Made by a program: the position numbers and the translations under genes
The notes under the pieces: generated by a model
The model's database searches: none
What the model was told of the DNA's origin: nothing
The model's input: the letters and a program-made list of their open reading frames with translations, nothing else
Source: a virus
Virus record (IMG/VR): IMGVR_UViG_3300042562_001235
Span: 1 to 64,000 of that record
Direction: 5' to 3' (one strand)
Length of the DNA: 64,000 nt
Shown: positions 2,017 through 37,183 of the stretch, piece after piece
Numbering within the stretch: position 1 is the stretch's first letter
Layout: each line of letters starts with the position of its first letter

Positions 2017-2027
2017 ACTAATAAATA

Positions 2028-2836: not shown

Positions 2837-3016
2837 ACTCTCTTTTTTACAGTTTATGAGTCCGGAATACTCCTCGCTCGTGACTTTAACAAGTGGATTT
2901 TGAAAAAGCCAATACGATAATTTAACACCATCGTATTGTTTAGTTATACTTAAATTTACGATAAAATTACCATAAATTCAAGACACCTCTATTCTATAAG
3001 TACCTCAAAAAACGTC

Positions 3017-3525: not shown

Positions 3526-3861
3526 ATGGAAAATTATACAAACCCTGAACCAGGGGACATGAAACAAGACGTTCAAGATTTATTGAACGCATCATTAATC
3601 TTTGCAAGAGCATTAGGTTTAATCTTTCAACAAGGAGAAGGAATTGTTGTTGATATAAAAGGAGATGTTATTTTAAAAGAAGACACAAAAAAAGTTATTG
3701 TATTTCAACATAACAATCAAATTCATATCTATAAATGTGAAGAAGATTTGGAAGAAGGAACTGCGGTTAACATGAATAATGAAGAAAATCAAGAAAATGT
3801 TGACTCTTCAGATATTGAAGTAAGCGGAGCTGAAGTTGTAACACCAACTGACGAACAATAA
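3526..3861 (+). CDS. hypothetical acidic protein
   Basis: 111-aa ORF; TATTTAT motif abuts the ATG. Confidence 0.5.
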   Translation: MENYTNPEPGDMKQDVQDLLNASLIFARALGLIFQQGEGIVVDIKGDVILKEDTKKVIVFQHNNQIHIYKCEEDLEEGTAVNMNNEENQENVDSSDIEVSGAEVVTPTDEQ

Positions 3862-3880
3862 AAAACAAACAAAAACTTAA

Positions 3881-12852: not shown

Positions 12853-13370
12853 TATATTTTTCCGTATTTTAATTCATCTTCTGTTTTAGGTTTACATAGT
12901 GAAATATTTGGTTTACTAGCACACCACTCCATTAATTGAGTTGCAACTTTAATAACTATTTTATTCATAGAACCTCTACCAAACAATTCTTCATTTAATG
13001 CGTCAAATATAGATTCTCCACCTATTGTTGGGTAATATTTAATAATTGCCATTGAATTTGCAATATTAGTAAACCCGCTTAGTAAAACATAGTCTAACCC
13101 TCCAAATTTGGTTCCTATCCCATCTACGGATTTTTTAATTGCGTTCGATGCGTTTTTAAAATTTATATTCGGATTACCAAAATTAATATTTTTAATTTGG
13201 GTTGGGTTTTTCATTACTGATTTTGTAGCGGTTTCAAAATACTCTAAATCACCAGTATTTTGTTCAAAAATAACAGTTTTATTCTCATTTAAAGTTTTTG
13301 ATGAATCATAACCCATCATTAATTTAACTCTATTTAATGCCTCTCCAGGACTATAGTGTGGTTGTACCAT
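12852..13370 (-). CDS. hypothetical protein
   Basis: 172-aa ORF; its start overlaps the stop of the upstream gene. Confidence 0.5.
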   Translation of the reverse strand: MVQPHYSPGEALNRVKLMMGYDSSKTLNENKTVIFEQNTGDLEYFETATKSVMKNPTQIKNINFGNPNINFKNASNAIKKSVDGIGTKFGGLDYVLLSGFTNIANSMAIIKYYPTIGGESIFDALNEELFGRGSMNKIVIKVATQLMEWCASKPNISLCKPKTEDELKYGKI

Positions 13371-16321: not shown

Positions 16322-17575
16322 ATGAGAAAACATAAAATAATTGACGCTATTTTTTTATACGATGAAATAGAAATGTTGCATTTTAGGTTAACGGAGTTAG
16401 ATGAGTACGTAGACGAATTCGTTATTATGGAATGTGAAATGGATTTTAAGGGTAATCCTAAACCATTGAATTATCTTGAAAATATTGATTTATTTAAAAA
16501 ATGGGAAAATAAAATAACATATCTTCCAACCCCAAAATTAACTTTTGATGATGTATCTCATCTTTATGAATCAGTTAAATTCACACGAAATTCTAATAAC
16601 GAAGACCCAAATTTTTTAGAAAAAAATGATATTAGGTTTTTTCAAATAACAATATTAATTGGTATTTTATTAGAAAAATCAATAGGGTTCGATGATTTAA
16701 TTTTAATTTCAGACGTTGATGAAATTCCAGATTTATCTAAAGTTTCTTTATTTAAACCTCATCTTAAATTTGGTGTTGTTCTTTTAAGACACACTAACTT
16801 TATATGGTCAGTAAAATATTATGATGTAATTCCAACTATAGGAACCATTGGGTTTCAATATACACGGTTAATAACAAATCCTAATATGATTTATCTTGCA
16901 TATTTCAATAAATCAGATTTATCAAAAGATAATTTTGAAATTATAGATAATGGTTATCATTTATCTCATTTTTATGATTTAGAAAAAACAATAAAAAAAT
17001 TGGAATTACTTCACGATAAAAATAGTGAGTATGATTTAAATGAGATGGTTATTAACATGAGGTACGCCTATGAAAATTTAACATCAATAAAAACTAATCG
17101 TTATCAAAAATTTTATAATTTAATTAATTATGATGGAGAATTACCTAAAAACATTGGTTTACTAAAGAATCAAGATATTGGTAGGTCGTGGAATAAAAAA
17201 AATTTAATATTACTTAATCGTACTAGAACCCCAAATGATATTAAAATGGAGGAAATGTTTGACAATATTTGTATAATTAATTTTACCGATAACCCACAAT
17301 TACCATACGAAACTATACTGTCAAAAAAAAGAACTTATTATAACATACTAAAACCTCTTAAAATTTATTATAAAACAGATGATGTTTTAGATTTAGAAAG
17401 TTTTCAAAAAGTATTTTGTATTAATGATATTAAAAAAATTGTTCAAGATTTATTACCAATAAACCAAGATTTGATAGTTTTTACTAATGAAAAAAAAACC
17501 ACAAATAGTGTTACATACTCGTGGGAAGAAATTAAAAATAAATTTATTTATGATTTAGTTAAAGATATTCTATAA
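16322..17575 (+). CDS. glycosyltransferase family 17-like (beta-1,4-mannosyl-glycoprotein GlcNAc-transferase-like)
   Basis: N-terminus KIIDAIFLYDEIEMLHFRLTELDEYVDEFVIMECEMDFKGNPKPLNY matches the GT17 domain start (f.nElDlLeiRl.eL...VD.FvivEs..tFtG.pKpl). Confidence 0.6.
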   Translation: MRKHKIIDAIFLYDEIEMLHFRLTELDEYVDEFVIMECEMDFKGNPKPLNYLENIDLFKKWENKITYLPTPKLTFDDVSHLYESVKFTRNSNNEDPNFLEKNDIRFFQITILIGILLEKSIGFDDLILISDVDEIPDLSKVSLFKPHLKFGVVLLRHTNFIWSVKYYDVIPTIGTIGFQYTRLITNPNMIYLAYFNKSDLSKDNFEIIDNGYHLSHFYDLEKTIKKLELLHDKNSEYDLNEMVINMRYAYENLTSIKTNRYQKFYNLINYDGELPKNIGLLKNQDIGRSWNKKNLILLNRTRTPNDIKMEEMFDNICIINFTDNPQLPYETILSKKRTYYNILKPLKIYYKTDDVLDLESFQKVFCINDIKKIVQDLLPINQDLIVFTNEKKTTNSVTYSWEEIKNKFIYDLVKDIL

Positions 17576-17605
17576 AAAAACCCTCATTATTGAGGGTTTT
17601 GTTTT
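17574..17605. terminator. bidirectional rho-independent terminator (CCCTCA-TTAT-TGAGGG)
   Basis: Hairpin flanked by an A-run and a T-run, sitting between convergent genes. Confidence 0.65.
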
Positions 17606-18585
17606 TAATTATATCTGCTCATTCTGTTAAACATCTCTGAGATTTTATTTTTTTGAGTTTTAAAATCTTCTTGTAGGTCTGTGTCAATTTCTTCCCACTC
17701 ATCTTCATCATTAGTTTCCATATCACCCATAGATTTTGACATTCCCATAAATTCTCCATCTGAAGAAAAACTTGGATATAGTTCTTCACTACTATCCATA
17801 TCTTCGTCCTCATTATAACTAAATCTTTGGTATGGTCCTGCAATGCCAGGTCCATCACTATCAAAATCATATGCTGGGTCCATATCTCCGTAAATTCCTT
17901 GAGAACCTGAAACATCAACTTCAGCTATTTCATCTGAGAACGCAGACTCCATTCTTTCATATTTAACTTCTTCCTCATCATCATATTCGTTAACCGGATA
18001 AACATCAAGAGGACCATTACTGTCAAAATCATATGCCGGTTCAACAGAATCAGTATCCATATCATCGGTGTTTCCACCTTGTTCATCCAATACGTCTGTT
18101 TCTGATTCTTCGTCTTCAAAACCAGTATCATCAATTACATCATCTTCTTTATAAAGATTTTTATGCATTCCTTCAAATGTTCCGTAATCGTTTCCTCCAC
18201 CTTCAACATAGTCAAAATCACCATGAGACAGATTTAAATCTCTTTCTTTATAGATGTCGTCTAATTTACCTGTACCTTCTTCTATTTCTTCGTTTGTACC
18301 ACATTGTTCACAAATACCTTCGGCCATTTGACCTCCACATTGCTCACACATACTTTTAGATTCAACTTGTTCGTTAATTCCAAAGTTTGTATATTTTTTG
18401 ACCTCACCTTTATTATTAACAACAAGACCATCCTTATCACCAGCTGGGTCATATACATATAATGGTTGGGTATTTGATACTTGAGGTTGCATTGTTTGGT
18501 AACCGTTGTATAAACTTCTGTGTTGGTCTAATATATCCGACTTTTCTGCCGCTGACAATTGACCTATTCCATAATTTGTTCTCAT
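17605..18585 (-). CDS. highly acidic protein with a zinc-ribbon and repeated DPAYDFDS(N/D)GP motifs
   Basis: CEQCGGQMAEGICEQCG zinc ribbon; two copies of MDPAYDFDSDGP / EPAYDFDSNGP; D/E-rich throughout. Confidence 0.55.
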   Translation of the reverse strand: MRTNYGIGQLSAAEKSDILDQHRSLYNGYQTMQPQVSNTQPLYVYDPAGDKDGLVVNNKGEVKKYTNFGINEQVESKSMCEQCGGQMAEGICEQCGTNEEIEEGTGKLDDIYKERDLNLSHGDFDYVEGGGNDYGTFEGMHKNLYKEDDVIDDTGFEDEESETDVLDEQGGNTDDMDTDSVEPAYDFDSNGPLDVYPVNEYDDEEEVKYERMESAFSDEIAEVDVSGSQGIYGDMDPAYDFDSDGPGIAGPYQRFSYNEDEDMDSSEELYPSFSSDGEFMGMSKSMGDMETNDEDEWEEIDTDLQEDFKTQKNKISEMFNRMSRYN

Positions 18586-18782
18586 AAATAAGTTTTAATA
18601 TAAATACACACGATTTACCCTTTTTATGTTTGACATATCGAAAATACCTTATTATATTTAATTAAGACAAGTGAAAGGTTGATAATTCATTTGATAGTAT
18701 CTTGGTAATTTACTCTTCGCCTAATTTCAACCTCACTTGTTTTTTTTTTCTTCACTATTTTTTTATTCCATAATATATCAAT

Positions 18783-18790
18783 ACCTTTGT
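18783..18790 (+). promoter_or_regulatory. Bacteroidetes-type -7 promoter box TACCTTTG
   Basis: Matches TAnnTTTG, 3 nt upstream of the ATG at 18794. Confidence 0.4.
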
Positions 18791-18793
18791 CGT

Positions 18794-19291
18794 ATGAATA
18801 TATTTTTCTTGGATGAGAATCCCAAATTATCAGCACAATATCACGTAGACAAACACGTTGTTAAAATGATTTTAGAGACAGCACAACTTTTATGTGGTGT
18901 TCACCATTCTATCAACACATCAAGTACCCTACAAGTACCCTACAAGTTATCACATAAAAATCATCCTTGTGCAATATGGGCTCGTGAGAGTTTATCAAAT
19001 TATTTGTATTTGTGTGAATTGGGGTTAGAACTTGGTAAAGAATACACATACAGATATGGTAAAAAACACAAATCAATTGAGGTTATTGAATGGTGTATTG
19101 TAAACAAACCTAACATAATTGATATTGGATTTACAAAACCAGCGATGGCAATGCCGGATGAATTTAAAGTTGATTCTGTTGTAGAATCTTACAGGAATTA
19201 TTATATGGGGGCTAAAAGTGATTTAGCATCTTGGAAAAATAGAGAGAAACCTTTTTGGTTTGAAAAAAAAAGAATTACATTTGCAGTATGA
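18794..19291 (+). CDS. hypothetical protein
   Basis: ORF 18737..19291 trimmed to MNIFFLDENPK; the first 19 codons are translated poly-T intergenic sequence. Contains an in-frame 12-bp tandem duplication AGTACCCTACAA x2. Confidence 0.5.
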   Translation: MNIFFLDENPKLSAQYHVDKHVVKMILETAQLLCGVHHSINTSSTLQVPYKLSHKNHPCAIWARESLSNYLYLCELGLELGKEYTYRYGKKHKSIEVIEWCIVNKPNIIDIGFTKPAMAMPDEFKVDSVVESYRNYYMGAKSDLASWKNREKPFWFEKKRITFAV

Positions 19292-19950
19292 TTAAAATAG
19301 ATAAAGATAGAAAAGTTTTTATTACTTCCGATACACATTACGGACATAAAAACATTTGCCGTGGGGTGACAAATTGGAGATTACCGGATGGTAGTATTCC
19401 AATAGACCAAACAAGAGATTTCAAAACAATAGAACAAATGAACGAATCTATTGTTAGTGGAATCAATAGTGTTGTTGGTGAAGATGATGTATTAATTCAC
19501 TTGGGTGACTGGTCTTTTGGCGGGTTTGAAAACATCCAAAAGTTCCGAGATAGAATCGTGTGTAAAGAAGTTCACCTTATATTAGGTAATCACGACCACC
19601 ACATTCAAAATAACCGAGGTGAGTGTCAGGAACTATTTGCAAGCGTTACTCGTTCAACAACTATGTCATACAAATTCAAAACATTTGAACTATTCCACTA
19701 CCCAATTGCATCTTGGGAAAACCTAAACAGAGGGGTTATTCACCTTCACGGACACGTTCACTTGCCAACAAACTTAAGATTTGGTAAAGGTAAGAAAATG
19801 GATGTTGGTATGGATGGCCACCCAACTTTTGGAGTATATGATATGGACGATATCATAAGAATTATGGATAAACGTGATATTGTGTCAGATATGTTATTTG
19901 ACCACCACACGGATGAGATTGAAACCGAAGACGGAAAAAAAAGAAAATAA
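19288..19950 (+). CDS. calcineurin-like metallophosphoesterase
   Basis: DTHYGH, GDWSFGG and GNHDHH metallophosphatase motifs. Confidence 0.65.
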   Translation: MIKIDKDRKVFITSDTHYGHKNICRGVTNWRLPDGSIPIDQTRDFKTIEQMNESIVSGINSVVGEDDVLIHLGDWSFGGFENIQKFRDRIVCKEVHLILGNHDHHIQNNRGECQELFASVTRSTTMSYKFKTFELFHYPIASWENLNRGVIHLHGHVHLPTNLRFGKGKKMDVGMDGHPTFGVYDMDDIIRIMDKRDIVSDMLFDHHTDEIETEDGKKRK

Positions 19951-20010
19951 AATTAGGAAGGTAAGTTTTAATCACTTACATTTGTCAAACAAAAATAAAA
20001 ATAGAAATAT

Positions 20011-20232
20011 ATGCAAACATTGATTTTTAACACAACAACAAAAAAAGTTAAGTTGTTGTCAGGTTCACAAGGTGAATCACAAGTATTAGAGACATTTGAT
20101 AATGTATCAACCGTAAAATGTTCAGAACTTGGATTTTACGAAGTAATGCAAAAGGCGGAATCTCAATCCGTTACTTCAATTCCTGTAATGAGATTACCAA
20201 TTTCAAATACCAATATGTTAATTGAAAAATAG
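20011..20232 (+). CDS. hypothetical protein
   Basis: 73-aa ORF. Confidence 0.35.
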   Translation: MQTLIFNTTTKKVKLLSGSQGESQVLETFDNVSTVKCSELGFYEVMQKAESQSVTSIPVMRLPISNTNMLIEK

Positions 20233-20515
20233 TATGAAGAAAATTGCAATTGTTATTGGGATTTTATTAGTAATAATTGGTTTAGTTGAAACAATTGATT
20301 TATCATTTTATTTGATGAACCGTCCAGACACATACCTATTCAATTCAGGTCTTGTATTATTAGGATTACAATTATTAGGGTTTGCCTACATATGTCGTTT
20401 TATGTTTGATTTAGTATCGAAATGGTCTAAAGATAAGGAAACGGAAATAACAACCGAGGAACCTAAAAAACCAAAGAAAAAAAATAAAAATAACTTAAAA
20501 CAAGAAAAAAAATGA
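20222..20515 (+). CDS. small two-TM membrane protein (NfeD-like partner of the SPFH protein?)
   Basis: Two hydrophobic helices plus a Lys-rich tail; overlaps the downstream SPFH gene start by 4 nt. Confidence 0.45.
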   Translation: MKNSMKKIAIVIGILLVIIGLVETIDLSFYLMNRPDTYLFNSGLVLLGLQLLGFAYICRFMFDLVSKWSKDKETEITTEEPKKPKKKNKNNLKQEKK

Positions 20516-21339
20516 GAAGAATTTTAGTAGCAGTAGGAATTGTCGTATTACTTTTTACAATGGCAATGTCGTGTGAAAGAATCGATGCGGGTCACGTAGG
20601 TGTAAAAGTCGATATGTACGGAAGTGGTAAAGGGGTGAACGATGTCACCGAATGTACGGGGGTAGTATTTTATAATCCTATCACCACAAAAATTTATGAG
20701 TTCCCAACGTTTATACAACACAAAGAATACAAAGATGAAAATTCATTTGTGGTAAATAGTAAGGATGGTTCGGAATTTAGTGTTTCTCCAATTATGAACT
20801 ATTCAGTTCAAAGAGAAAAAGTCCCTACAATATTCGCTAAATACAGAAGAAGTTTGGAAGAAATTGAAGAAGGATTCTTAAAAACTGCAGTGTATGACGC
20901 ATTCCGTTTAGCAACTAATAAGTATACTGCAGATGGATTAATCGGAAATAGAGAAATTTTTGAGATTGAAGTTAGACGTTTGTTAGAAGCTCAACTACTT
21001 AAAGAAGGATTCGTAATTAATCAGTTCACATCTAATTTAGTTTATCCGGATTCATTCAAGAAAGCAATTAATGCTAAGAACAACGCGGTACAGTCGGCAT
21101 TGATGGCGGAGAACAAAGTAAAACAGGCTGAGGCTGAGGCAAAAATTAAAGTGGCAACTGCTAATGGTAATGCTGAGGCATTGTTGGCAAACGCAAGAGC
21201 TGAGGCGGAATCTAACAGATTAAGACAACAAACATTAACTCCAATGTTATTACAACAACAATGGATTGAGAAATGGAAAGGTAATGTTCCAACCACTCAG
21301 TTGGGGGCTAACACTCAAGTGTTGTACGGTCTAAAATAA
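20512..21339 (+). CDS. SPFH/band-7 (prohibitin/stomatin-like) membrane protein
   Basis: N-terminal TM, SPFH-core-like region, C-terminal coiled-coil AEAEAKIKVATANGNAEALLANARAEAES. Confidence 0.65.
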   Translation: MRRILVAVGIVVLLFTMAMSCERIDAGHVGVKVDMYGSGKGVNDVTECTGVVFYNPITTKIYEFPTFIQHKEYKDENSFVVNSKDGSEFSVSPIMNYSVQREKVPTIFAKYRRSLEEIEEGFLKTAVYDAFRLATNKYTADGLIGNREIFEIEVRRLLEAQLLKEGFVINQFTSNLVYPDSFKKAINAKNNAVQSALMAENKVKQAEAEAKIKVATANGNAEALLANARAEAESNRLRQQTLTPMLLQQQWIEKWKGNVPTTQLGANTQVLYGLK

Positions 21340-27540: not shown

Positions 27541-27966
27541 CTATCGAAATGGAATTACAACACCGACTCCGTATCTAAATCCTTCCATGTAGTTTACACC
27601 AACCACGAAATCAAACCCTCTATCGGTATTGGTTAATATTCTTAATGGGTATGCTTTAACCCACACATCAGGTTTGAACTTAATTTCGTCAATATATGTC
27701 TCCATAAACACTCCACCCATTAAACTTACCTTATGATTAGTTAAGTTAATACCAACACGATTTAAAATTGACATCGGTGTTGTGTAGATGTAAGGTTGTG
27801 GACGGGTCGTTGTGATATACCCACCAACATAATACCCAATTGGAGAGTAATTGCTGTTATAAGTTGCAACAATTGTATTTTGGTCCGGTACATACATTAA
27901 GTCCGCATCCTGAGAGAATCCCATAAATGGAATCAATAAAAATAAAAGTGAGGTTATTGTTTTCAT
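27541..27966 (-). CDS. small secreted beta-rich protein
   Basis: Signal peptide MKTITSLLFLLIPFMGFSQ; ends in an aromatic-rich ...GVVIPFR. Confidence 0.5.
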   Translation of the reverse strand: MKTITSLLFLLIPFMGFSQDADLMYVPDQNTIVATYNSNYSPIGYYVGGYITTTRPQPYIYTTPMSILNRVGINLTNHKVSLMGGVFMETYIDEIKFKPDVWVKAYPLRILTNTDRGFDFVVGVNYMEGFRYGVGVVIPFR

Positions 27967-29887: not shown

Positions 29888-30346
29888 TTATTTTTGTTTT
29901 AAACTACGATAATACTTAATCATATTTTCACAATGATTAATTAACCAATCTTCAACTAAAGGTATTTGTTTAAGGAAACCCAATTCATATTGATAACATA
30001 AAATTTCTTCATCCCTCTCATCTAAAAATATGTTATTATTCCTATAATATAAATGTTTCGATTCATGAATAATTATGGCCGATAAATTGTTGATATTACC
30101 AGATTGAATGTCTTGTTTAGATATCAATATAACATCATTACCTTCAGTGGTTGAAAACTTATTATTCCAAAACCCTATCCGTTTACATTGTTTAATTACT
30201 ACGTCGTACTTGGATGAATCCACTTTTTGAATCACTTCCAAACTTTTTTCAACATTTTTTTTCCACCCTTCACCAACATCATCAATGATTATTTGTGAAA
30301 ACGATTGAATGGAAAATAACAACATTAATAATATGATAAATCTCAT
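29888..30346 (-). CDS. small secreted protein with an HESKH (HExxH) motif
   Basis: Signal peptide; IIIHESKHLYY. Confidence 0.45.
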   Translation of the reverse strand: MRFIILLMLLFSIQSFSQIIIDDVGEGWKKNVEKSLEVIQKVDSSKYDVVIKQCKRIGFWNNKFSTTEGNDVILISKQDIQSGNINNLSAIIIHESKHLYYRNNNIFLDERDEEILCYQYELGFLKQIPLVEDWLINHCENMIKYYRSLKQK

Positions 30347-30434: not shown

Positions 30435-32318
30435 ATGAAAAAACTTTTTATGGCGCTGTCATTCCTTATAATGACTTCACTGGGTTATTCCCAAATTTGT
30501 CCGACACCGACAACTACCGGAGTTTTTGTTACATTAGACGCAACCTATCAATTAGCACCGGCATCTGCTGGTAATACTGAAGTAGGTTTATGTTTTTTTA
30601 ACAATACTACGGAGTTAGTTACGGCTGCTCAGTTTCGAGTGTTTTATGATACCGCAGCATTCACATCAGTGTCTTCTGTTGTATCGTCAAATACATCGTT
30701 TCCTCAATATATTCAATTTCAGGATAGTCCTGCTAATGGATATGTTACGATTACTCTAACTTACACAGGTAATGATTCCAATTTTGAATTATCAGATGGG
30801 TCATTTGTAAAATTAAATTTAGTACACTCAGCAAATTTTGCGAGTTTGTCGTCTGTTCAACCCATGACATTTAGTGGTGTTCAAACATTCCCACAAACTG
30901 CAACAAAACAAAATGGTTCTGACTATACTTTAAATTTACAAAACTTTGGTGGAGCGTTTTTACCTCAACTATTTTCGTTTAGTGGTACATTCACTAACGT
31001 AACAGGAACGGGGTCAAAATTAATTCCGGTTATTTTAGAGAAAAAATTAATGACATCTTCAACTTGGGTTCAAGCGTCAACAACACAAACAAATAACTCT
31101 GGTGTTTTCACATTTACGGATGTACCATTAGATGTTACAAGTTATGACGTTCGTATTAGAGTAGATGGTGAATCACTAACAATTGCGAATATCATTTCTA
31201 CATCTGACTCACAAAAAATCAACAGATTTGTTTTAGGTCAAGATACTCCAACAGGATTTGATTTCTATTCATCTGATGTTAATGGTGACAACAACATATC
31301 AATTTCTGATGTGTATGGTGTGTTTGGTAGAGTATCAGGAAGATTTAGTTCTTGGCCTAATACGGTTAAAGATGTTAAATTCTTCTCAGATTCAGAATAC
31401 ACTTCTATTAATGGAGCAACATCATCTTTACAATCTACAATTCCGGGTGTAACAAATCTTGTTTACAATATTTTACCGGGTACAACAACAGTTACTTTCT
31501 ATGTCTTAGTTAAAGGAGACGCTAATGGTACTGGTTTTAATATGGCTCGTATGACCCCAATTGAAATCGTAAACCCATTAAACGCACCATCAAATATTAT
31601 TGATGTTACAACAACTTATGACAACCCAACATTACAAACAATCGAATTAAACTATCCAAGTTTAACGGTAAATGAAAATAGTAGAGTTGAGGTTCCTGTT
31701 CTTGTAAAAACAAATGGAATTCAATTAGGTTCTTTACAACTAGCACTAAATTACAATAGTAATCTATTAGATTTTACAGGTGTTAGAGCGGAGAATAAAG
31801 TTAGTGGATGGATAACTTATGTTAACACAAATGATAATATTGTTGAGTGGGGTGGTTATGACCCAACAAAAAATACGAAATTATTAAACGACAACGAATT
31901 AGCATTCACGCTACAATTCATAGCGAAAGAAATTCAAAGTCAATGGGGTGTAAGTCCTTTATATGTTACAAAAAAATTCTCAGGAAATTCAATTGCTAAA
32001 GATTTGAAAATAATACCAACAAACGGAATTATTCAAATCATGAGAGTTATGAAACCAACCGATTTAGAATATATGGTGACATATCCAAATCCAACTGATA
32101 ATGAAATCACAGTCAAATTTACAGTAGAAAAAGAAGGTAATGTTTGGTTGTCTTTATATGATTTGGGTGGTAGAGAAATTAAAACAATTGTTCGTACTGA
32201 TTTAAATTCAGGAGAACACAGATATAGTACAAATGTTGGTCACCTTCCTTCAGGGACTTACATCGTTACTCTTAAAAAAGGTACGGGAATAGAATCTAAT
32301 AAGATTATCCGTAAATAA
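30435..32318 (+). CDS. secreted protein with a T9SS (Por) C-terminal sorting domain
   Basis: Signal peptide. The C-terminus LSLYDLGGREIKTIVRTDLNSGEHRYSTNVGHLPSGTYIVTLKKGTGIESNKIIRK fits the T9SS type-A CTD. Internal DVNGDNNISISDVYGVFGRVSGRFSSW motif is shared with 35350..36324. Confidence 0.6.
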   Translation: MKKLFMALSFLIMTSLGYSQICPTPTTTGVFVTLDATYQLAPASAGNTEVGLCFFNNTTELVTAAQFRVFYDTAAFTSVSSVVSSNTSFPQYIQFQDSPANGYVTITLTYTGNDSNFELSDGSFVKLNLVHSANFASLSSVQPMTFSGVQTFPQTATKQNGSDYTLNLQNFGGAFLPQLFSFSGTFTNVTGTGSKLIPVILEKKLMTSSTWVQASTTQTNNSGVFTFTDVPLDVTSYDVRIRVDGESLTIANIISTSDSQKINRFVLGQDTPTGFDFYSSDVNGDNNISISDVYGVFGRVSGRFSSWPNTVKDVKFFSDSEYTSINGATSSLQSTIPGVTNLVYNILPGTTTVTFYVLVKGDANGTGFNMARMTPIEIVNPLNAPSNIIDVTTTYDNPTLQTIELNYPSLTVNENSRVEVPVLVKTNGIQLGSLQLALNYNSNLLDFTGVRAENKVSGWITYVNTNDNIVEWGGYDPTKNTKLLNDNELAFTLQFIAKEIQSQWGVSPLYVTKKFSGNSIAKDLKIIPTNGIIQIMRVMKPTDLEYMVTYPNPTDNEITVKFTVEKEGNVWLSLYDLGGREIKTIVRTDLNSGEHRYSTNVGHLPSGTYIVTLKKGTGIESNKIIRK

Positions 32319-32386
32319 TTTATGGTGTCACAATTTGTGACACCAAAGCCTATAAGAAGGAAATAAACAATTAAAATTAAATTAAA

Positions 32387-32725
32387 ATGTCAGAAGAAAC
32401 GCAAGAAACACAAAATGATGGTACTTGGTCAGGATTAAAGAAAACTATAATAGGTACACTTACCACAGTTATTGGTGGTGGTGGTATATGGTTATCAACA
32501 CAATTATTTGGAGGTCATAGTGATGAAGAAGAAACAAAAACAGAACAAGTTGCACAACCTGCGGCAGCACCTGTAGTTATCAATCTACAAAACAACAACA
32601 CAAACCAACAAAAACAACAAAACAATGGTGGTGGTACTAACACAATCATCAGAGAAAAAGTTGTGGAAAAACCTGCGGCACAACCAGCACCTGCTAAACC
32701 AAAAGAAGAGGAAGACCCTTGGTAG
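32387..32725 (+). CDS. small membrane-anchored Pro/Gln-rich protein
   Basis: TM segment LTTVIGGGGIWLSTQLFGG followed by a low-complexity tail. Confidence 0.4.
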   Translation: MSEETQETQNDGTWSGLKKTIIGTLTTVIGGGGIWLSTQLFGGHSDEEETKTEQVAQPAAAPVVINLQNNNTNQQKQQNNGGGTNTIIREKVVEKPAAQPAPAKPKEEEDPW

Positions 32726-32726
32726 G

Positions 32727-33443
32727 ATGAAGAAGTTAGTATTACTATTACCTTTTTTACTTTTTTCGTGTATTGGATTATCTCAAACTATTGGAACCAT
32801 AAAAACTGAGGACTATAAAGCCGATTTTGAAAAAAAACAATCTTTAGATGTTGTTAGTGATTATAATGGTGACATTGTAATACCAATCCAAATATTAAAA
32901 ATTGGTATTAACGATGAGATATATGAGATGTACCCGGAACTAAAAGATAAACGAGTAGGTCTTGGGGTTGCAAATATTGTATTAGAGTATTTGGAATCAA
33001 CAGATAGGTTTAAATTCACTGAGGATAAAGCGGAAATCAAAAACAAAATGATTGCCCAAGATAAGGCATCTGATAAAGGAATTTCAAGTAATAAAATAGA
33101 AGTTAAAGGTAATGTAATTTTAGCGAACTATTTTGTTTACATAGAAGTTTACGATTTCAGTGTGTCGGAAGACGAAGTGATTAAAGGAAGTGAAGGTGCA
33201 AAAATAACTCAAACAACTCGTTTAGGTTTACAAATTAGATTTGTTGATGCACAAACAGGAGAAGTTATAACCGGTAGTGGGTTAGGTGAATCTAACACAG
33301 TAAAAACATCATCTCTTTTAGATGACGTAGATGAAATTAAATTTAACCAATCAACAATTGGTATATCAACAAAAAAATCTTTAGAAACCGCATCTTCAAG
33401 AGTTGTTTCTAAATTAATTAAAAAAGGGGTTTTTAAAGAATAA
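32727..33443 (+). CDS. lipoprotein
   Basis: ORF trimmed to MKKLVLLLPFLLFSC (lipobox). Confidence 0.5.
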   Translation: MKKLVLLLPFLLFSCIGLSQTIGTIKTEDYKADFEKKQSLDVVSDYNGDIVIPIQILKIGINDEIYEMYPELKDKRVGLGVANIVLEYLESTDRFKFTEDKAEIKNKMIAQDKASDKGISSNKIEVKGNVILANYFVYIEVYDFSVSEDEVIKGSEGAKITQTTRLGLQIRFVDAQTGEVITGSGLGESNTVKTSSLLDDVDEIKFNQSTIGISTKKSLETASSRVVSKLIKKGVFKE

Positions 33444-34900
33444 TGAAGACGATATTCTCATTTTTATTTCTTATATTTACAACTATGGTATTAGGTCAAG
33501 GGTTTACATATTCTTATGCAGACCCTTGTACTTCTAAAACCAAGGAAATTTACATACCAAACCCAAGCCAAAGTGTAGTACTATCATATAATGGTTCTGT
33601 TCAAAGTTTTACGTACGCTCAACTTCAATCAGGTGCCATGGAACAATGGATAAACCAAGTGGATTCTCAAAATCCATCAGGTCCTTGTAGTGGGGTTGGT
33701 TTATTACAAAACACATCAATAAACGCAACTATTGCTGCCAATAACATACAAGTAATAACTACTGTATTGACCTCAATGTCTTCAATATCATCTGCCGGTA
33801 TGTCAAATGTGGAAGGTGTTATTCAAGCGGATGAAAAAGTATCATCCAATAATGAAAGACAGAAGGATAAAACTAAAATAGAAAATAATGCAACAACTAA
33901 TATTAACGGAGGAAGTACAACAACTACTAACACAAATTCAGGAACTTCGCAAAGCGGGGGAAATCAAAACAATGGTTCAGGAGTTGGAAACGGAACTAAT
34001 CCGCAAGGAGGAACGACTTCAAATTCAAATGACCCAACTACAACAGGAGGTCAGTCGTCTCAGTCACCTGTAACTTCCGGTAATAATACAACACCAAATA
34101 CTAATAACTCCACAACACCAAATAATAATAATTCCTCAGGAGCAAGTAATATTACAGGTGGAATTAATTCTGTTAGATTAGATAATACCGAAAAATCTGA
34201 TAAAGAAAAACTTGATGACGCACAATCATCATCATCATCATCCTCTTCGTCAACTAAAAGTAAAGTCGCAGCTGTTAAAAAAGGTAGTTTAATGATGACA
34301 GGTGATATTGTTGTAATAGGGAGTGCCTCCGGTACTGACCCTTCTCAAATAAGAGTAAATACAAGTATTATTTCATCAAACACTAAAAATACGTTTGCAA
34401 AAGGAGCGTTAGTTAACTACACAAGTCAAATTAACAACACAAATATCACATTATTTGCGTCGTATCGTTATAAAAAATCAACAACTATTATCGCAAATTC
34501 ATCTATGATGAATTTTGATAAAGATTTTTTTAACACCACTTCAGTGATGGAGTCTTACCAAATAAAAAAAATCACCACAACGGTAGGGGTTAACTACACA
34601 ACAGGAAATTTAGGAGATTCTAAATTCCAAAGTATCTCAACATTAGGAGGTGGTTTTGGTAGTTTTAATGTTAATAAAAAAATGGGTTTAACAACAATGT
34701 TTGTTGTCGTATACTCACCTTTTGTTTATTACTATGAAGGAATATGGTATCAATCAGGTTTATTAGCGGTCCCATTTGTCGCTGTTGACTATAAACTAAC
34801 TAAAAAATTTAAACTAAACATAAGTTTTAGTGGTGTTCAACAAATAAATGACCAACCACTAAACTACCAAGTATTACTTGGAGCTAAAGCATTTTTATAA
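33443..34900 (+). CDS. secreted Ser/Thr/Asn-rich protein with a C-terminal beta-rich domain (outer-membrane/PorP-SprF-like?)
   Basis: Signal peptide; about 150 aa of N/T/S/G low complexity including a poly-Ser (TCA)n run; a beta-strand-like C-terminal 230 aa ending AKAFL. Confidence 0.5.
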   Translation: MKTIFSFLFLIFTTMVLGQGFTYSYADPCTSKTKEIYIPNPSQSVVLSYNGSVQSFTYAQLQSGAMEQWINQVDSQNPSGPCSGVGLLQNTSINATIAANNIQVITTVLTSMSSISSAGMSNVEGVIQADEKVSSNNERQKDKTKIENNATTNINGGSTTTTNTNSGTSQSGGNQNNGSGVGNGTNPQGGTTSNSNDPTTTGGQSSQSPVTSGNNTTPNTNNSTTPNNNNSSGASNITGGINSVRLDNTEKSDKEKLDDAQSSSSSSSSSTKSKVAAVKKGSLMMTGDIVVIGSASGTDPSQIRVNTSIISSNTKNTFAKGALVNYTSQINNTNITLFASYRYKKSTTIIANSSMMNFDKDFFNTTSVMESYQIKKITTTVGVNYTTGNLGDSKFQSISTLGGGFGSFNVNKKMGLTTMFVVVYSPFVYYYEGIWYQSGLLAVPFVAVDYKLTKKFKLNISFSGVQQINDQPLNYQVLLGAKAFL

Positions 34901-34902
34901 CC

Positions 34903-35349
34903 ATGAAAAAATTATTAATTACATTACTGATGTTAGGTTCATTAACATCATTCTCACAAAATTGTTACACTGTGAAAGACATTAAAAACAACGGAGAAAT
35001 CGAAGGGGTTAACCCAAAAAGATTTACTTTAGGTGTTAAACAAATAACCGAAGAAATATTATCGGTTAACAATACAATATGCGAAGATGGTAAACCTGTG
35101 TCAGTCTTAATCGAAAGTATTGAAGCACCTTCAACGGGTATATCATTAGGACCATTCGAAAGAAAAAGAAAAAAAACAATAGTTACTTTAATTATCACTA
35201 AAGATGGTAAAGAATATAAAGGTGTTGGTGATTCAAATACTGATGTAAAATCAACATTTATAGAATTACAGGATGAAAATCTCCCTTTTGAAAAATCGGC
35301 ATTTTCTTCGGCATTAAAAAAAGCAATACAAAACGCATTAGAACAATAA
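34903..35349 (+). CDS. small secreted protein
   Basis: Signal peptide MKKLLITLLMLGSLTSFSQ. Confidence 0.45.
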   Translation: MKKLLITLLMLGSLTSFSQNCYTVKDIKNNGEIEGVNPKRFTLGVKQITEEILSVNNTICEDGKPVSVLIESIEAPSTGISLGPFERKRKKTIVTLIITKDGKEYKGVGDSNTDVKSTFIELQDENLPFEKSAFSSALKKAIQNALEQ

Positions 35350-36324
35350 ATGACAAAGTTATTCTACATATTACTTTTATTTTCAACAATCTCTTGGAGT
35401 CAAAATTTTACTTACTCGGGTTATATCTATAACTCGGTAGGTGGTGGTATTCAAAATATGGAAGTAAAGTTGTATAAAAGAACAACACCAACTTTAAATG
35501 GGTTTACCTCTCAAAATAATTATAACGGACATTCATATTATCGTTCAACCGGTTCGATGACTTGGACGGATGCAAGACAGGCGTGTTTAAACATGGGAGG
35601 TCATTTAGTTACAGTAACTTCACCCGCTGAGAATAACTTTATATTTAATCTATGGCCAAATGGTTGGATTGGATTAACAGATGAAGTATCAGAAGGTACT
35701 TGGAGATGGGTTACAAATGAACCCTTTTCTTGGTCTAATTGGAATGGTGGGGAACCAAATAACGCAGGTAATGAAGATTATATTCAATTTGTTGGTGGTG
35801 GTAAATGGAATGATTTACCTAATATTTCATTACCATATGTTTTGGAGTTTGAGTATATTGTAACATTTACGGAATGGGCATACGTAAAAAGTGTTTACAC
35901 AGATTCTAATGGGAGATACTCAATTAATGAAGCTTCAAACCCTTCAGTTGAATGGTATTTACAAATTGGTACACCATCCACTCCACCTTTATTAGAAAAT
36001 GTTGATGCACAACAATCAAATACCAAATCAATATCAAGAACATTAACTTCATTAGATTATTATAGATATGACGTTAATAACGATGGTAGAATCAATATAT
36101 CGGATTCATATTACATTTTTATGAAAAAATCCGGTAGATTTTCTTCTTGGGAAACCTCACTTCCTAATTCAAGAATCTTCACACCATCACAATATTCAAT
36201 TCTAAATTCTTCAACTACTGATTTAAGAATTTCGTATCCCGGTGTTCAAAGTTTTACCATTAATTCTCCGATAAATGGGGGGTCTTCAAATTTTTATTTA
36301 ATAAGAACGGGTAAAAAGGACTAA
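35350..36324 (+). CDS. secreted C-type lectin domain protein
   Basis: Canonical CTLD: WTDARQACLNMGGHLVTVTS...WIGLTD...GEPNN...EDYI...WNDL, with EPN and WND Ca/mannose-type motifs. Also carries YRYDVNNDGRINISDSYYIFMKKSGRFSSW, shared with 30435..32318. Confidence 0.7.
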   Translation: MTKLFYILLLFSTISWSQNFTYSGYIYNSVGGGIQNMEVKLYKRTTPTLNGFTSQNNYNGHSYYRSTGSMTWTDARQACLNMGGHLVTVTSPAENNFIFNLWPNGWIGLTDEVSEGTWRWVTNEPFSWSNWNGGEPNNAGNEDYIQFVGGGKWNDLPNISLPYVLEFEYIVTFTEWAYVKSVYTDSNGRYSINEASNPSVEWYLQIGTPSTPPLLENVDAQQSNTKSISRTLTSLDYYRYDVNNDGRINISDSYYIFMKKSGRFSSWETSLPNSRIFTPSQYSILNSSTTDLRISYPGVQSFTINSPINGGSSNFYLIRTGKKD

Positions 36325-36361: not shown

Positions 36362-37183
36362 ATGATACTAAAAAATGGCTCAAAAGGCGAAGAAGTTAAA
36401 AAACTTCAATCAAAATTAGGGACAACACCTGATGGTGTTTTCGGTCCCGGAACTGAAAAATTGGTTAAAGAATGGCAAACTAAAAATGGATTAACATCTG
36501 ACGGGATTGTTGGTGATGGAACTTGGAAAAAAATGTTTCCGGGGGAAATCATTAAAGAAGATGTCGTTATTCCATCGGGAGGACCATTAAAATTAGAAAA
36601 ATTAAAAGGACACATTCCGGAATCAGTAATTGTTCAAATTCCTGACACTGCAAAAAAATTCAACATCACTAATCCATTAAGATTAGCTCATTTCTTGGCA
36701 CAATGTGGTCATGAATCAGGTGGATTTAAAGCAGTTTCTGAAAATGTAAATTATTCTGCTGATGGTCTTAAAAAAATCTTCCCAAAATACTTTCCGGGCA
36801 ACTTAGCAGAATCTTACGCAAGAAACCCTGAAAAAATTGCATCAAAAGTATATGGTGGAAGAATGGGTAATGGAGATGAGGCATCAAAAGATGGTTTCAA
36901 ATTCAGAGGTCGTGGTTATATTCAATTAACAGGAAAACAAAACTATACAAACTTCGCGAAATTTATCGGTGAAGATACTGTATCAAATCCTGATTTAGTC
37001 GCAACAAAATATCCATTAGCATCAGCAGCATTCTTCTTCGACTCAAACAAACTTTGGTCTATTTGTGATAAAGGAGCTGACGACGCAACAGTAACGGCAG
37101 TAACTAAAAGAGTAAATGGTGGAACTATTGGTTTACCTGATAGAATTAAGCATTTTAAAGAATATTATAATTTATTAAAATAA
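36362..37183 (+). CDS. endolysin: PG_binding_1 domain plus glycoside hydrolase family 19 (lysozyme/chitinase-like) domain
   Basis: N-terminus KGEEVKKLQSKLGTTPDGVFGPGTEKLVKEWQTKNGLTSDGIVGDGTW. The catalytic region FLAQCGHESGGF...YGGRMGNG...FRGRGYIQLTGKQNY matches GH19. Confidence 0.8.
   Translation: MILKNGSKGEEVKKLQSKLGTTPDGVFGPGTEKLVKEWQTKNGLTSDGIVGDGTWKKMFPGEIIKEDVVIPSGGPLKLEKLKGHIPESVIVQIPDTAKKFNITNPLRLAHFLAQCGHESGGFKAVSENVNYSADGLKKIFPKYFPGNLAESYARNPEKIASKVYGGRMGNGDEASKDGFKFRGRGYIQLTGKQNYTNFAKFIGEDTVSNPDLVATKYPLASAAFFFDSNKLWSICDKGADDATVTAVTKRVNGGTIGLPDRIKHFKEYYNLLK

What the first reader, a model, noticed from the sequence alone, without database searches (positions are those of the whole stretch)
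30435..36324. Phage-encoded T9SS cargo and canonical C-type lectin sharing a dockerin-like GRFSSW motif
The 627-aa protein at 30435 ends in a textbook Bacteroidota type-IX-secretion C-terminal domain. A phage product would therefore be exported and surface-attached by the host T9SS. It shares a roughly 30-aa motif (D(V)N(G/N)D..I(S)ISD.Y..F....GRFSSW) and an upstream beta-rich module with the 324-aa protein at 35350. That second protein carries an animal-type C-type lectin domain with intact EPN...WND Ca2+/mannose-binding residues. Between them lie two lipoproteins, a Ser/Thr-rich protein with a beta-barrel-like C-terminus and another secreted protein, all immediately upstream of the endolysin. 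This looks like a host-surface remodelling, adhesion or superinfection-exclusion cassette.
Basis: partly seen in the sequence, partly recalled or inferred. Interest (0 to 1): 0.65.

Follow-up and report, generated by a model that had tools for sequence, protein, structure and literature searches.

The report
Phage cohesin-dockerin lectin display cassette
A large phage of Flavobacterium-type bacteria carries a conserved block of six exported proteins, apparently a Lego-like kit that uses the host's own secretion system to mount swappable sugar-binding heads on the infected cell's surface; the parts are recognisable, but the purpose is untested.

Summary
The 627-aa protein ends in a type-A T9SS sorting domain that passes curated cut-offs. 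The 324-aa protein has a C-type lectin domain with EPN and WND motifs. The two proteins share about 165 aa, not 30.

Across 101 sequences examined (100 related loci plus the window), 85 have exactly 2 cohesins, 2 dockerins and 1 CTD. In 28 loci, including cultured Flavobacterium phage immuto, the scaffold is split into two secreted proteins.

The lectin "head" is swappable: CTLD, CTLD+LamG, PA14, GEVED or Ig.

The genes between are:
- a bitopic inner-membrane protein;
- a divergent CsgG/LpoB-superfamily protein;
- an autotransporter-like 12-stranded barrel on a Ser/Thr stalk;
- a small secreted protein of unknown fold.

The "two lipoproteins" claim is mostly wrong.

The cassette is essentially phage-only, under purifying selection, and usually adjacent to an endolysin. 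It is best read as a T9SS-anchored, cellulosome-like glycan-binding display on infected cells. Function is inferred only. Phage-encoded T9SS cargo was already reported in 2020, so this is a new variant of known kinds.

The parts
30435..32318 (+). Scaffold protein w627. Layout: signal peptide, cohesin 1, CarboxypepD_reg-like sandwich, dockerin, Ig-like domain, GDANGTG linker, cohesin 2, T9SS type-A CTD.
   Evidence: ORF. Pfam and NCBIfam hits. Family alignment A4 of 19 diverse members: Por_Secre_tail 19/19, Cohesin 16/19, Dockerin_1 13/19. dN/dS 0.13.
30519..30965 (+). Cohesin domain 1 (about aa 29-177 of w627)
   Evidence: Pfam Cohesin aa 56-156, whole-protein 34.0 bits against cut-off 24.1. 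Own COH1 HMM E=5.6e-64.
31152..31379 (+). Dockerin module of the scaffold (about aa 240-315). The first Ca loop is degenerate and the second is intact (DVNGDNNISISD).
31611..32051 (+). Cohesin domain 2 (about aa 393-539 of w627)
   Evidence: Second Pfam Cohesin stretch. Own COH2 HMM E=2.3e-64. It is a separate secreted protein together with the CTD in phage immuto gp015. No BLASTP similarity to cohesin 1.
32082..32309 (+). T9SS type-A C-terminal sorting domain (aa 550-625)
   Evidence: PF18962 42.6 bits (cut-off 27). TIGR04183 41.4 bits (cut-off 23).
32387..32725 (+). w112: bitopic inner-membrane protein. Short acidic N-terminus, one TM helix, then a low-complexity Pro/Ala/Gln/Asn tail ending in Trp.
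   Evidence: Sequence. A homolog with a highly conserved N-terminus and TM helix lies between the scaffold and w238 genes in at least 79 of 91 loci. Immuto gp016 is 66% identical over the N-terminal 50 residues.
32727..33443 (+). w238: divergent CsgG/LpoB-superfamily envelope protein, and the most conserved gene of the cassette
   Evidence: JGI names it CsgG. No Pfam hit for the window protein itself. 17 of 39 distant relatives found with its profile hit Pfam CsgG and 10 of 39 hit LpoB. hhalign against E. coli CsgG gives 91.8% probability, E=7e-07. dN/dS 0.055.
33443..34900 (+). w485: autotransporter-like outer-membrane protein. Signal peptide, 2-Cys N-terminal domain, S/T/N/G stalk of hypervariable length, then a C-terminal barrel of about 12 strands.
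34903..35349 (+). w148: small secreted protein with a conserved Cys pair and unknown fold
   Evidence: Alignment A2. No convincing PDB or Pfam match in 27 members. Immuto gp019 is 50% identical.
35350..36324 (+). w324: head protein. Signal peptide, split CarboxypepD_reg-like sandwich with an inserted C-type lectin domain, dockerin, Ig-like domain. No CTD.
   Evidence: Lectin_C 61.3 bits. In relatives the head is exchanged for CTLD+Laminin_G_3, PA14, GEVED or Ig_7 while the base stays conserved.
35554..35820 (+). C-type lectin domain (aa 69-157) with EPN135 and WND153 and a single Cys
   Evidence: EPN and WND are present in all 22 family members that hit Lectin_C.
35944..36168 (+). Dockerin module of the head protein (aa 199-273), with a canonical DVNNDGRINISD loop
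   Evidence: Own DOC HMM E=3.3e-32. Pfam Dockerin_1 14.3 bits, below the cut-off. Homologous to the modelled scaffold dockerin.
29888..30346 (-). Accessory, frequently linked gene: a 152-aa secreted zincin-like protein with an HExxH motif (HESKH)
   Evidence: Within 300 bp of the cassette in 60 loci. HExxH is invariant in 35 of 35 unique sequences. Only weak Pfam hits, most of them to zinc-metallopeptidase families.
36362..37183 (+). Neighbouring endolysin (PG_binding_1 + GH19) with no signal peptide. It is linked to the cassette but is not part of the display machine.
   Evidence: It lies a median 385 bp from the cassette edge in 60 loci, in three different arrangements.

Best explanation
This is a conserved, phage-specific operon of six envelope-targeted proteins. 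I read it as a cellulosome-like display system built on the infected Bacteroidota cell.

Shown by computation:
- Five of the six proteins carry host-type Sec signal peptides, and the sixth (w112) is a bitopic inner-membrane protein.
- The scaffold has two divergent cohesins, one dockerin and a type-A T9SS sorting domain.
- A second protein carries a homologous dockerin under a swappable glycan-binding head, here a C-type lectin with the EPN/WND sugar site.
- The cassette keeps a 2 cohesin : 2 dockerin : 1 CTD ratio.
- In one clade the scaffold is split at its linker into two secreted proteins.

Inferred mechanism:
- The host T9SS exports the scaffold and attaches it to the cell surface through its CTD.
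- Cohesin 2 holds the scaffold's own dockerin. This happens in trans in the split form, which would give an anchor plus an adaptor.
- Cohesin 1 holds the head protein's dockerin, so the lectin ends up on the surface.
- Because the head has no CTD, it either rides out bound to the scaffold or meets it at lysis.
- The other four proteins are co-installed in the envelope with unknown roles: the inner-membrane protein, the CsgG/LpoB-like protein, the autotransporter-like barrel with a stalked N-terminal domain, and the small secreted protein.

Most speculative step: the fast turnover of head domains and the persistent link to the endolysin suggest the heads bind strain-specific host surface glycans late in infection. 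That would cap receptors so that superinfecting phages and newly released progeny are not wasted on infected cells and debris.

My confidence by layer: anatomy about 0.85, cohesin-dockerin display about 0.6, receptor capping about 0.3.
For: - CTD, cohesin and CTLD all pass curated cut-offs.
- Stoichiometry is 2:2:1 in 85 of 101 sequences examined, with nearly all exceptions cut by contig ends.
- The scaffold is fused in 68 loci and split in 28, each half with its own signal peptide. This is a gene-fusion argument that the two halves interact.
- Head swapping on a conserved base.
- Q-rule signal peptides in 82 of 93 family members (rule described in PMC5837995).
- Five of the six genes are detected in 94-101 of 102 loci at roughly 25-100% identity, and the w112 gene in at least 79 of 91.
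- dN/dS is 0.05-0.17.
- Only 3 MAG contigs among 185,579 species genomes carry the cassette.
- No other cohesin or dockerin is found in the 64-kb window or elsewhere in phage immuto.
- An endolysin lies within a median 385 bp in 60 loci.
- w485 has a barrel fold. w238 belongs to the CsgG/LpoB superfamily.
Against: - No expression, localisation or binding data exist.
- Both AlphaFold models have only moderate confidence: pLDDT 59 for the dockerin and 60-79 for the barrel.
- The dockerin fails Pfam's cut-off and has only one intact Ca loop.
- Which cohesin binds which dockerin, or whether they bind at all, was not tested.
- The head lacks any known route across the outer membrane, and piggyback export through T9SS is unprecedented to my knowledge.
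- Four of the six proteins have no assigned role in the model.
- Linkage to the endolysin fits a lysis role equally well.
- In immuto itself the endolysin is not adjacent.
Confidence: 0.45

Rival explanations
1. Same display machine, different purpose. The lectin heads make infected cells stick to neighbouring host cells, to polysaccharide particles or to algae. Progeny are then released next to new hosts, or the infected cell stays on its food source.
For: - All head types are glycan- or surface-binding modules: CTLD, LamG, PA14, GEVED, Ig.
- A scaffold with two cohesins allows multivalency.
- The autotransporter-like protein with a stalked N-terminal domain has the layout of an adhesin.
- Hosts are surface-associated Flavobacterium- and Sediminibacterium-type bacteria.
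Against: Nothing distinguishes this from receptor capping. Proximity to the endolysin suggests late expression, which would leave little time for adhesion to matter, but timing was not measured.
Confidence: 0.2
2. Lysis accessory module. The inner-membrane protein w112, the CsgG/LpoB-like w238, the barrel w485 and w148 form an envelope-spanning complex. It would disrupt or time disruption of the outer membrane in Bacteroidota, as a spanin or holin equivalent, with the lectin and scaffold as add-ons.
For: - A GH19 endolysin without a signal peptide lies a median 385 bp from the cassette in 60 loci across three arrangements.
- No holin or spanin is otherwise evident next to it.
- w112 has an i-spanin-like or holin-like topology.
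- w238 carries a lipobox in about half of its family.
- Extra small TM ORFs are inserted in the cassette in some relatives.
- Genes overlap or abut, which suggests one transcription unit with the endolysin.
Against: - This does not explain cohesins, dockerins, the T9SS CTD or swappable lectin heads.
- w238 is 238 aa and not consistently a lipoprotein, unlike small o-spanins.
- The w112 tail is low-complexity rather than coiled-coil.
- In phage immuto the cassette is kept although the endolysin is 6 kb away and of another type.
Confidence: 0.15
3. Virion-associated proteins. The scaffold and lectin are tail-fibre or decoration components, or they bind particles after lysis, giving the virion a glycan-binding adhesin.
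For: - Domain-swapping heads on a conserved base resemble receptor-binding proteins.
- BFVD contains a phage 'tail protein' with a dockerin-like segment.
- C-type-lectin folds occur in some phage receptor-binding proteins (own knowledge: Bordetella phage Mtd).
Against: - Sec signal peptides obeying the Bacteroidetes Q-rule are found on five of the six proteins, and there is a T9SS CTD. Virions assemble in the cytoplasm.
- No structural PHROG hits.
- The cassette lies among replication and nucleotide-metabolism genes in immuto.
- No further cohesin or dockerin that could sit on a virion protein is found in the window or in immuto.
Confidence: 0.07
4. Passenger genes recently captured from a host (morons), with no role in the phage life cycle.
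For: All domains (CTD, cohesin, dockerin, CsgG-like, barrel) are typical bacterial envelope modules.
Against: - The cassette is found in more than 150 viral contigs but in only 3 MAG contigs among 185,579 species genomes.
- It is kept as a unit from about 160-kb to over 300-kb phages at roughly 25-100% identity.
- It is under purifying selection.
Confidence: 0.03

Closest known systems
Cellulosome cohesin-dockerin assemblies (e.g. Clostridium thermocellum CipA/OlpB with type I dockerin enzymes)
   Different: - Encoded by a phage of Gram-negative Bacteroidota.
- Anchoring would be through a T9SS CTD rather than SLH or sortase.
- The docked subunits are lectin or other binding modules, not enzymes.
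- Only two cohesins.
- The dockerin has one intact Ca loop and fails Pfam's cut-off.
- The dockerin is embedded between a CarboxypepD_reg-like domain and an Ig-like domain.
Phage-encoded T9SS cargo in 'Cryophage' (Bellas et al. 2020, PMC7468147)
   Same: Phage genes carry type-A T9SS sorting domains, including a PA14 protein. They are highly variable between phage variants. The authors proposed secretion by the host system, with roles in competition or superinfection.
   Different: There the CTD sits directly on enzymes or on a PA14 protein. Here the CTD is on a cohesin scaffold and the variable head is attached indirectly through a dockerin. No conserved multi-gene envelope cassette was described there.
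Flavobacterium phage vB_FspM_immuto gp013-gp019 (NC_055915)
   Same: Orthologous cassette: lectin 61% identical, CsgG-like 74%, barrel 35%, small protein 50%, scaffold 31-35%. GenBank already labels gp013 'lectin C-type domain-containing' and gp015 'cohesin domain-containing'.
   Different: The scaffold is split into two genes, the lectin comes first, and the endolysin is not adjacent. The papers found that mention the phage deal with DNA modification and polymerases; I did not open them to check for the cassette.
Receptor-masking and superinfection-exclusion proteins of lytic phages (e.g. T5 Llp lipoprotein blocking FhuA; own knowledge)
   Same: A phage-made envelope protein that would neutralise the phage's receptor on the infected cell and its debris. 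This is the purpose proposed here.
   Different: Llp is a single small lipoprotein acting on a protein receptor. Here it would be a multi-protein, lectin-based system acting on glycans. This is an analogy of function only, and nothing was tested.
Type Va autotransporters (NalP, EstA, AaaA, EspP)
   Different: No Pfam Autotransporter hit in any of 27 members. The passenger is only about 100 aa on a low-complexity stalk. The linker helix is short and of low confidence.
CsgG curli channel / LpoB family
   Same: w238 aligns to E. coli CsgG residues 4-189 at 91.8% hhalign probability. Its distant relatives hit Pfam CsgG and LpoB.
   Different: - The window protein itself does not reach any Pfam threshold.
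- The segment matching CsgG's first transmembrane hairpin is charged.
- The lipobox is not conserved.
- No curli subunits or CsgE/F are present.

Membership tests
T9SS type-A C-terminal sorting domain (TIGR04183 / PF18962) | HMM score at or above the curated cut-off | tested here: met
   PF18962 42.6 bits against 27. TIGR04183 41.4 bits against 23, model positions 2-72 of 72. 19 of 19 family members hit.
T9SS type-A C-terminal sorting domain (TIGR04183 / PF18962) | Domain at the extreme C-terminus of a protein with an N-terminal Sec signal peptide | tested here: met
   The domain spans aa 550-625 of 627. The N-terminus reads MKKLFMALSFLIMTSLGYS|QICPT, with a Q-rule site.
T9SS type-A C-terminal sorting domain (TIGR04183 / PF18962) | T9SS-dependent export, CTD removal by PorU, and surface attachment | not testable with these tools
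   Needs infected-cell proteomics in wild-type and T9SS-mutant hosts.
Cohesin (PF00963) | HMM score at or above the gathering cut-off | tested here: met
   34.0 bits against 24.1, two stretches. 16 of 19 family members hit, best E=1.4e-12.
Cohesin (PF00963) | Binds a dockerin | not testable with these tools
   Only indirect support is available: a constant 2:2 ratio of cohesins to dockerins, and the fusion/split pattern.
Dockerin type I (PF00404) | HMM score at or above the gathering cut-off | tested here: not met
   w324 scores 14.3 bits against 22.9, and w627 gives no hit. Best family member E=7.8e-05. Sub-threshold hits occur in 26 of 47 members.
Dockerin type I (PF00404) | Three-helix dockerin fold | tested here: met
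Dockerin type I (PF00404) | Two duplicated Ca-binding F-hand loops (DxNxDGxxxxxD) | tested here: not met
   Only the second loop is intact (DVNNDGRINISD in w324, DVNGDNNISISD in w627). The first is degenerate (LTIANIISTSD in w627).
C-type lectin domain (PF00059) | HMM score at or above the gathering cut-off | tested here: met
   61.3 bits against 22.6.
C-type lectin domain (PF00059) | Ca/sugar-site motifs EPN (or QPD) and WND | tested here: met
   EPN135 and WND153. Both motifs are present in all 22 Lectin_C-positive family members.
C-type lectin domain (PF00059) | Conserved cysteines forming the two core disulfides | tested here: not met
   The whole 324-aa protein has a single Cys, C79.
C-type lectin domain (PF00059) | Ca-dependent carbohydrate binding | not testable with these tools
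   Needs a glycan array or binding assays.
CsgG (PF03783) / LpoB (PF13036) superfamily | HMM hit for the protein itself | tested here: not met
   No CsgG hit for the window protein. 1 of 15 close family members hits at 8.5e-05.
CsgG (PF03783) / LpoB (PF13036) superfamily | Homology by profile or transitive search | tested here: met
   17 of 39 relatives retrieved with the w238 profile hit CsgG (best 1.9e-17) and 10 hit LpoB. hhalign against verified E. coli CsgG gives 91.8% probability, E=7.3e-07, over 174 columns.
CsgG (PF03783) / LpoB (PF13036) superfamily | Lipoprotein anchoring and oligomeric transmembrane channel | tested here: inconclusive
   The lipobox is present in the window protein (LLFSC) but in only 8 of 15 members. 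The hairpin-equivalent segment is charged. Oligomerisation cannot be tested here.
Type Va autotransporter (PF03797) | HMM hit to the autotransporter beta-domain | tested here: not met
   No Pfam hit in 27 family members.
Type Va autotransporter (PF03797) | C-terminal 12-stranded barrel preceded by passenger and linker | tested here: met
Two-component spanin (rival reading) | Small outer-membrane lipoprotein plus a type II inner-membrane protein with a coiled-coil periplasmic domain | tested here: not met
   w112 has the topology, but its tail is low-complexity. No small lipoprotein partner is present, and w148 lacks a lipobox.

The most novel reading that the evidence does not exclude
The phage runs a natural 'hitchhiker' secretion and display system. 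A glycan-binding head protein with no secretion tag of its own docks in the periplasm, through its dockerin, onto a cohesin scaffold that carries the T9SS sorting domain. The two are co-exported as a folded complex through the host T9SS. This would give a viral, cellulosome-like surface array whose specificity is changed simply by swapping heads. It would be the first piggyback export through T9SS and the first functional cohesin-dockerin system of a virus.
Probability: 0.2. Interest if true: 0.8.

Novelty: new variant of a known kind. Interest (0 to 1): 0.6.

Why it matters
If the reading is right, an abundant lineage of large freshwater and brackish Bacteroidota phages re-tools the surface of the cell it is killing. 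The most conserved cassette protein alone has thousands of 90%-identity clusters in metagenomes.

The phage would do this with a modular kit made of three known parts:
- the host's type IX secretion system for export and anchoring;
- cohesin-dockerin pairs as connectors;
- interchangeable lectin-type heads for specificity.

That would extend cohesin-dockerin biology beyond polysaccharide degradation and into viruses. It would also give a concrete, genetically tractable case of phage-encoded T9SS cargo, and it could reveal how phages of these bacteria handle superinfection, debris or cell-cell contact.

It is directly testable, because a cultured phage-host pair with the cassette exists: phage immuto on Flavobacterium sp. 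LMO8. The cohesin-dockerin pairs might also serve as orthogonal connectors for surface display in Bacteroidota.

Tried and rejected
1. Nucleotide search of the region against 50,697 phage records found only a 504-nt endolysin match to a 634-kb uncultured phage. The protein-level search was needed to find immuto.

2. PHROGs gave nothing for the cassette proteins, apart from weak, implausible hits for w112 (Zot-like, hol-like).

3. w238 profile against PDB sequences gave 0 hits. hhalign of the shallow family profile against E. coli CsgG gave only 1.4% probability. It became convincing only after the profile was widened with distant relatives.

4. w148 gave only spurious hits: ribosomal protein S1 in PDB, and DUF903 and NodA in Pfam. 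Its fold remains unknown. It could not be modelled with a useful alignment because no accepted homolog set was available.

I worked around this by recovering cluster representatives.

6. The sigma-70 promoter scan gave no more hits than in shuffled sequence (40 against 39), and it is not appropriate for Bacteroidota promoters.

7. The lipoprotein reading of w148 is rejected, and that of w238 is downgraded.

10. I did not attempt a mirror-tree co-evolution test of cohesins against dockerins, because shared phylogeny and physical linkage would confound it.

11. Literature searches found no paper on a phage cohesin-dockerin or T9SS cassette.

Full report
**1. What is there**

They form a tight, co-directional block:
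- 30435-32318, 627 aa (w627)
- 32387-32725, 112 aa (w112)
- 32727-33443, 238 aa (w238)
- 33443-34900, 485 aa (w485)
- 34903-35349, 148 aa (w148)
- 35350-36324, 324 aa (w324)
- an endolysin at 36362-37183

Most junctions overlap or are 0-2 nt apart. The exceptions are a 68-nt gap after w627 and a 37-nt gap before the endolysin.

The window is a phage:
- It carries phage-type carbamoyltransferases, an RNA ligase, a thymidylate synthase and an endolysin, plus eight tRNA genes.
- It is syntenic with cultured Flavobacterium phage vB_FspM_immuto, 160 kb.
- The same genes sit on IMG/VR viral contigs of up to 308 kb and on a 320-kb JGI contig.

**2.

*T9SS sorting domain.* This is confirmed by both curated models. 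PF18962 scores 42.6 bits against a cut-off of 27. TIGR04183, the type-A model, scores 41.4 bits against 23. The match covers the whole model and lies at aa 550-625 of 627.

*C-type lectin domain.* Lectin_C scores 61.3 bits against 22.6, with EPN135 and WND153. The domain is not fully canonical, however. The whole protein contains one cysteine, so the two core disulfides are missing.

*Shared motif.* It is real and larger than described. BLASTP aligns aa 197-364 of w627 with aa 161-324 of w324 at E=3e-18. The shared block comprises a CarboxypepD_reg-like sandwich, the motif itself, and an Ig-like domain.

**3. The motif is a dockerin, and its partner is present**

Pfam Dockerin_1 is sub-threshold in the window proteins: 14.3 bits against 22.9 for w324. 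It recurs, though, in 13 of 19 scaffold-type and 13 of 28 head-type family members, with a best E-value of 7.8e-05.

A profile of the 76-aa segment from both families was searched against PDB sequences. It returned 18 sequences at E up to 10, and 11 of them are dockerins.

Only the second Ca-binding loop is intact, so this is a dockerin fold but not a canonical two-loop dockerin.

Pfam Cohesin scores 34.0 bits against 24.1 in two stretches, and 16 of 19 family members hit. The two cohesins share no BLASTP-detectable similarity with each other.

**4. Comparative anatomy**

I compared the window with 102 related loci.

- *Conservation as a unit.* Five of the six genes were detected in 94-101 loci at roughly 25-100% identity. 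The short, low-complexity w112 gene was found by position and transmembrane motif in at least 79 of 91 loci.
- *Module counts.* HMMs built from the families give exactly 2 dockerins, 2 cohesins and 1 CTD in 85 of 101 sequences examined (100 loci plus the window). Nine sources with one dockerin are cut by contig ends before the head gene, five more are truncated, and two carry a third dockerin-bearing protein.
- *Fused and split scaffolds.* The scaffold is fused in 68 loci and split in 28, including immuto. The split falls at the GDANGTG linker. It yields cohesin 1 + sandwich + dockerin + Ig (gp014) and cohesin 2 + CTD (gp015), each with its own signal peptide. By the gene-fusion argument these two halves interact. 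The obvious wiring is dockerin(gp014) to cohesin 2 (gp015), which leaves cohesin 1 for the head protein's dockerin.
- *Swappable heads.* The head proteins keep a conserved N-terminal strand and C-terminal base, but the domain inserted between them changes. It is a CTLD in 22 of 28 representatives, of which 6 also carry a Laminin_G_3 insert; the others have PA14, GEVED or Ig_7 heads.

**5. The other genes**

*w112* is a bitopic membrane protein. Its N-terminus and TM helix are very conserved, and it has a low-complexity tail.

*w238* is the most conserved gene of the cassette (dN/dS 0.055).
- JGI calls it CsgG.
- It has no Pfam hit of its own, and a shallow profile matched E. coli CsgG only weakly.
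- After a search of 1.84 billion representatives, 17 of 39 distant relatives hit Pfam CsgG and 10 hit LpoB.
- The widened profile matches E. coli CsgG at 91.8% probability. I had recalled that sequence from memory and verified it against the PDB.
- It is therefore a divergent CsgG/LpoB-superfamily protein. Whether it forms a channel is open.

*w485* has a 2-Cys N-terminal domain, a Ser/Thr/Asn/Gly stalk whose length varies from about 0 to 300 residues, and a conserved C-terminal domain of about 215 aa.
- No Pfam hit appears in 27 members.
- In the AlphaFold model the C-terminal domain forms 12 long strands at pLDDT 60-79.

*w148* is a small secreted protein with a Cys pair and no detectable relatives of known fold.

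*Signal peptides.* In all five secreted families the signal peptide ends with a small-x-small-Gln site in 82 of 93 members. This is the Bacteroidetes-specific "Q-rule" for signal peptidase I substrates (PMC5837995). A lipobox occurs in 8 of 15 w238 members and 1 of 27 w148 members, so "two lipoproteins" is not supported.

*A seventh linked gene.* A secreted 152-aa HExxH protein at 29888-30346 on the minus strand lies within 300 bp of the cassette in 60 loci. Its HExxH motif is invariant.

**6. Phage-specific and functional**

A pattern scan of one genome for each of 185,579 species found w238 relatives on only three contigs. All three are from MAGs: an uncultured Bacteroidetes bin, Flavobacterium and Sediminibacterium. 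They are probably binned phage DNA.

All six genes are under purifying selection, with dN/dS of 0.05-0.17 against a relative at dS of about 0.6-1.4.

No further cohesin or dockerin exists in the 64-kb window or elsewhere in immuto.

**7. How it most likely works**

*Shown.* Five proteins carry host-type export signals, and the sixth is a bitopic inner-membrane protein. One protein has a T9SS tag and two cohesins. Two proteins have dockerins, and one of those carries a variable glycan-binding head.

*Inferred.* The host T9SS exports and anchors the scaffold. The cohesins capture the two dockerins, so the head is displayed on the infected cell. The head has no outer-membrane route of its own, so it either hitchhikes on the scaffold or meets it at lysis.

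*Purpose.* The rapid head turnover points to a variable target such as host surface glycans. The GH19 endolysin stays a median 385 bp from the cassette through three different arrangements, which points to action around lysis. I therefore favour receptor capping: superinfection exclusion and protection of progeny from debris, by analogy with T5 Llp (own knowledge). Cell-cell or particle adhesion is nearly as good an explanation. A lysis-accessory role for the four unassigned proteins remains a live rival. A virion-structural role is unlikely.

**8. Novelty**

Several elements are already known:
- Phage-encoded T9SS cargo, including a variable PA14 protein, was reported in 2020 with similar speculation (PMC7468147).
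- Q-rule signal peptides on phage proteins were noted in 2023 (PMC10367356).
- GenBank already labels immuto gp013 and gp015 as lectin- and cohesin-domain proteins.
- UniProt/BFVD holds a 55%-identical scaffold named after its sorting domain, plus a few phage "dockerin" proteins.

The following appear to be new:
- recognising the shared motif as a dockerin matched by two cohesins in a fixed 2:2:1 ratio;
- the fused and split scaffold forms;
- the head-swapping;
- the conserved six-gene envelope cassette with an autotransporter-like barrel and a CsgG/LpoB-like protein.

No paper on this was found.

I rate it a new variant of known kinds. It is interesting and directly testable, but its function is not established.

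Noticed in passing
window 29888-30346 (-): A 152-aa secreted protein with a Q-rule signal peptide and an invariant HExxH motif (HESKH). Homologs lie within 300 bp of the cassette in 60 related loci. Pfam gives only weak hits, most of them to zinc-metallopeptidase families. It is possibly a seventh cassette member.
   Followed up: partly
window 23-946 (-): A cluster of eight tRNA genes (Ile, Asn, Phe, Tyr, Val, Cys, Gln, Ser) at the start of the window.
   Followed up: no
window 3881-5545 and 5549-7138 (+): Two tandem Nol-like carbamoyltransferase genes (phrog_1601, E=8.5e-104 and 3.7e-88).
   Followed up: no
window 32323-32345: A perfect 10-bp inverted repeat (TGGTGTCACA-ATT-TGTGACACCA) in the 68-nt gap between the scaffold gene and w112. 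It could be a terminator, an attenuator or a protein-binding site.
   Followed up: no
window 27541-27966 (-): A 141-aa protein with a signal peptide (MKTITSLLFLLIPFMGFS|QD) and a beta-rich, Tyr/Gly-rich sequence. It is found in only 8 related loci.
   Followed up: no
L046 5437-5703; L050 6743-7012; L066 7720-8001; L062 7517-7876: In some relatives, extra small ORFs with transmembrane segments (holin-like in size) are inserted between the w112 and w238 homologs.
   Followed up: no
L076 ORF from 3470 (422 aa); L101 ORF from 8926 (391 aa): Two loci encode a third dockerin-bearing protein next to the cassette, apparently a second head for the same scaffold.
   Followed up: no
L001 (phage immuto) 9935-10513: Directly upstream of the cassette, immuto encodes an annotated NUC1/endonuclease G-type nuclease that has an N-terminal signal peptide (MKKIFLLLLLPLLSFSQ). 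It appears to be another exported phage protein.
   Followed up: no
window about 36680-37183: The 3' half of the endolysin gene is 75.5% identical at the nucleotide level to a 634,780-bp uncultured phage record (LR745206.1). This was the only nucleotide match of the 12-kb region in the phage collection.
   Followed up: no
L002 (320,782-bp contig) 1537-3172, 3681-4106, 17173-17886, 18662-20590: Cassette neighbours on the jumbo-sized contig include two SLT-domain proteins, an FKBP-type protein, a Tad6-family protein and a 642-aa HSP70/MreB-like protein. There is also an extra 115-aa gene inside the cassette at 13005-13352.
   Followed up: no
proteins P0616, P0623, P0624, P0628, P0635, P0637, P0652: Among these longer distant relatives of w238, Pfam finds the CsgG/LpoB-like domain together with caspase (Peptidase_C14, 3 members) or protein kinase (2 members) domains.
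   Followed up: no
cluster of P0716: A scaffold homolog about 51% identical to w627 is recorded on a contig of 477,274 bp. This suggests the cassette also occurs in very large phage genomes, or in a mis-assembled or host contig.
   Followed up: no
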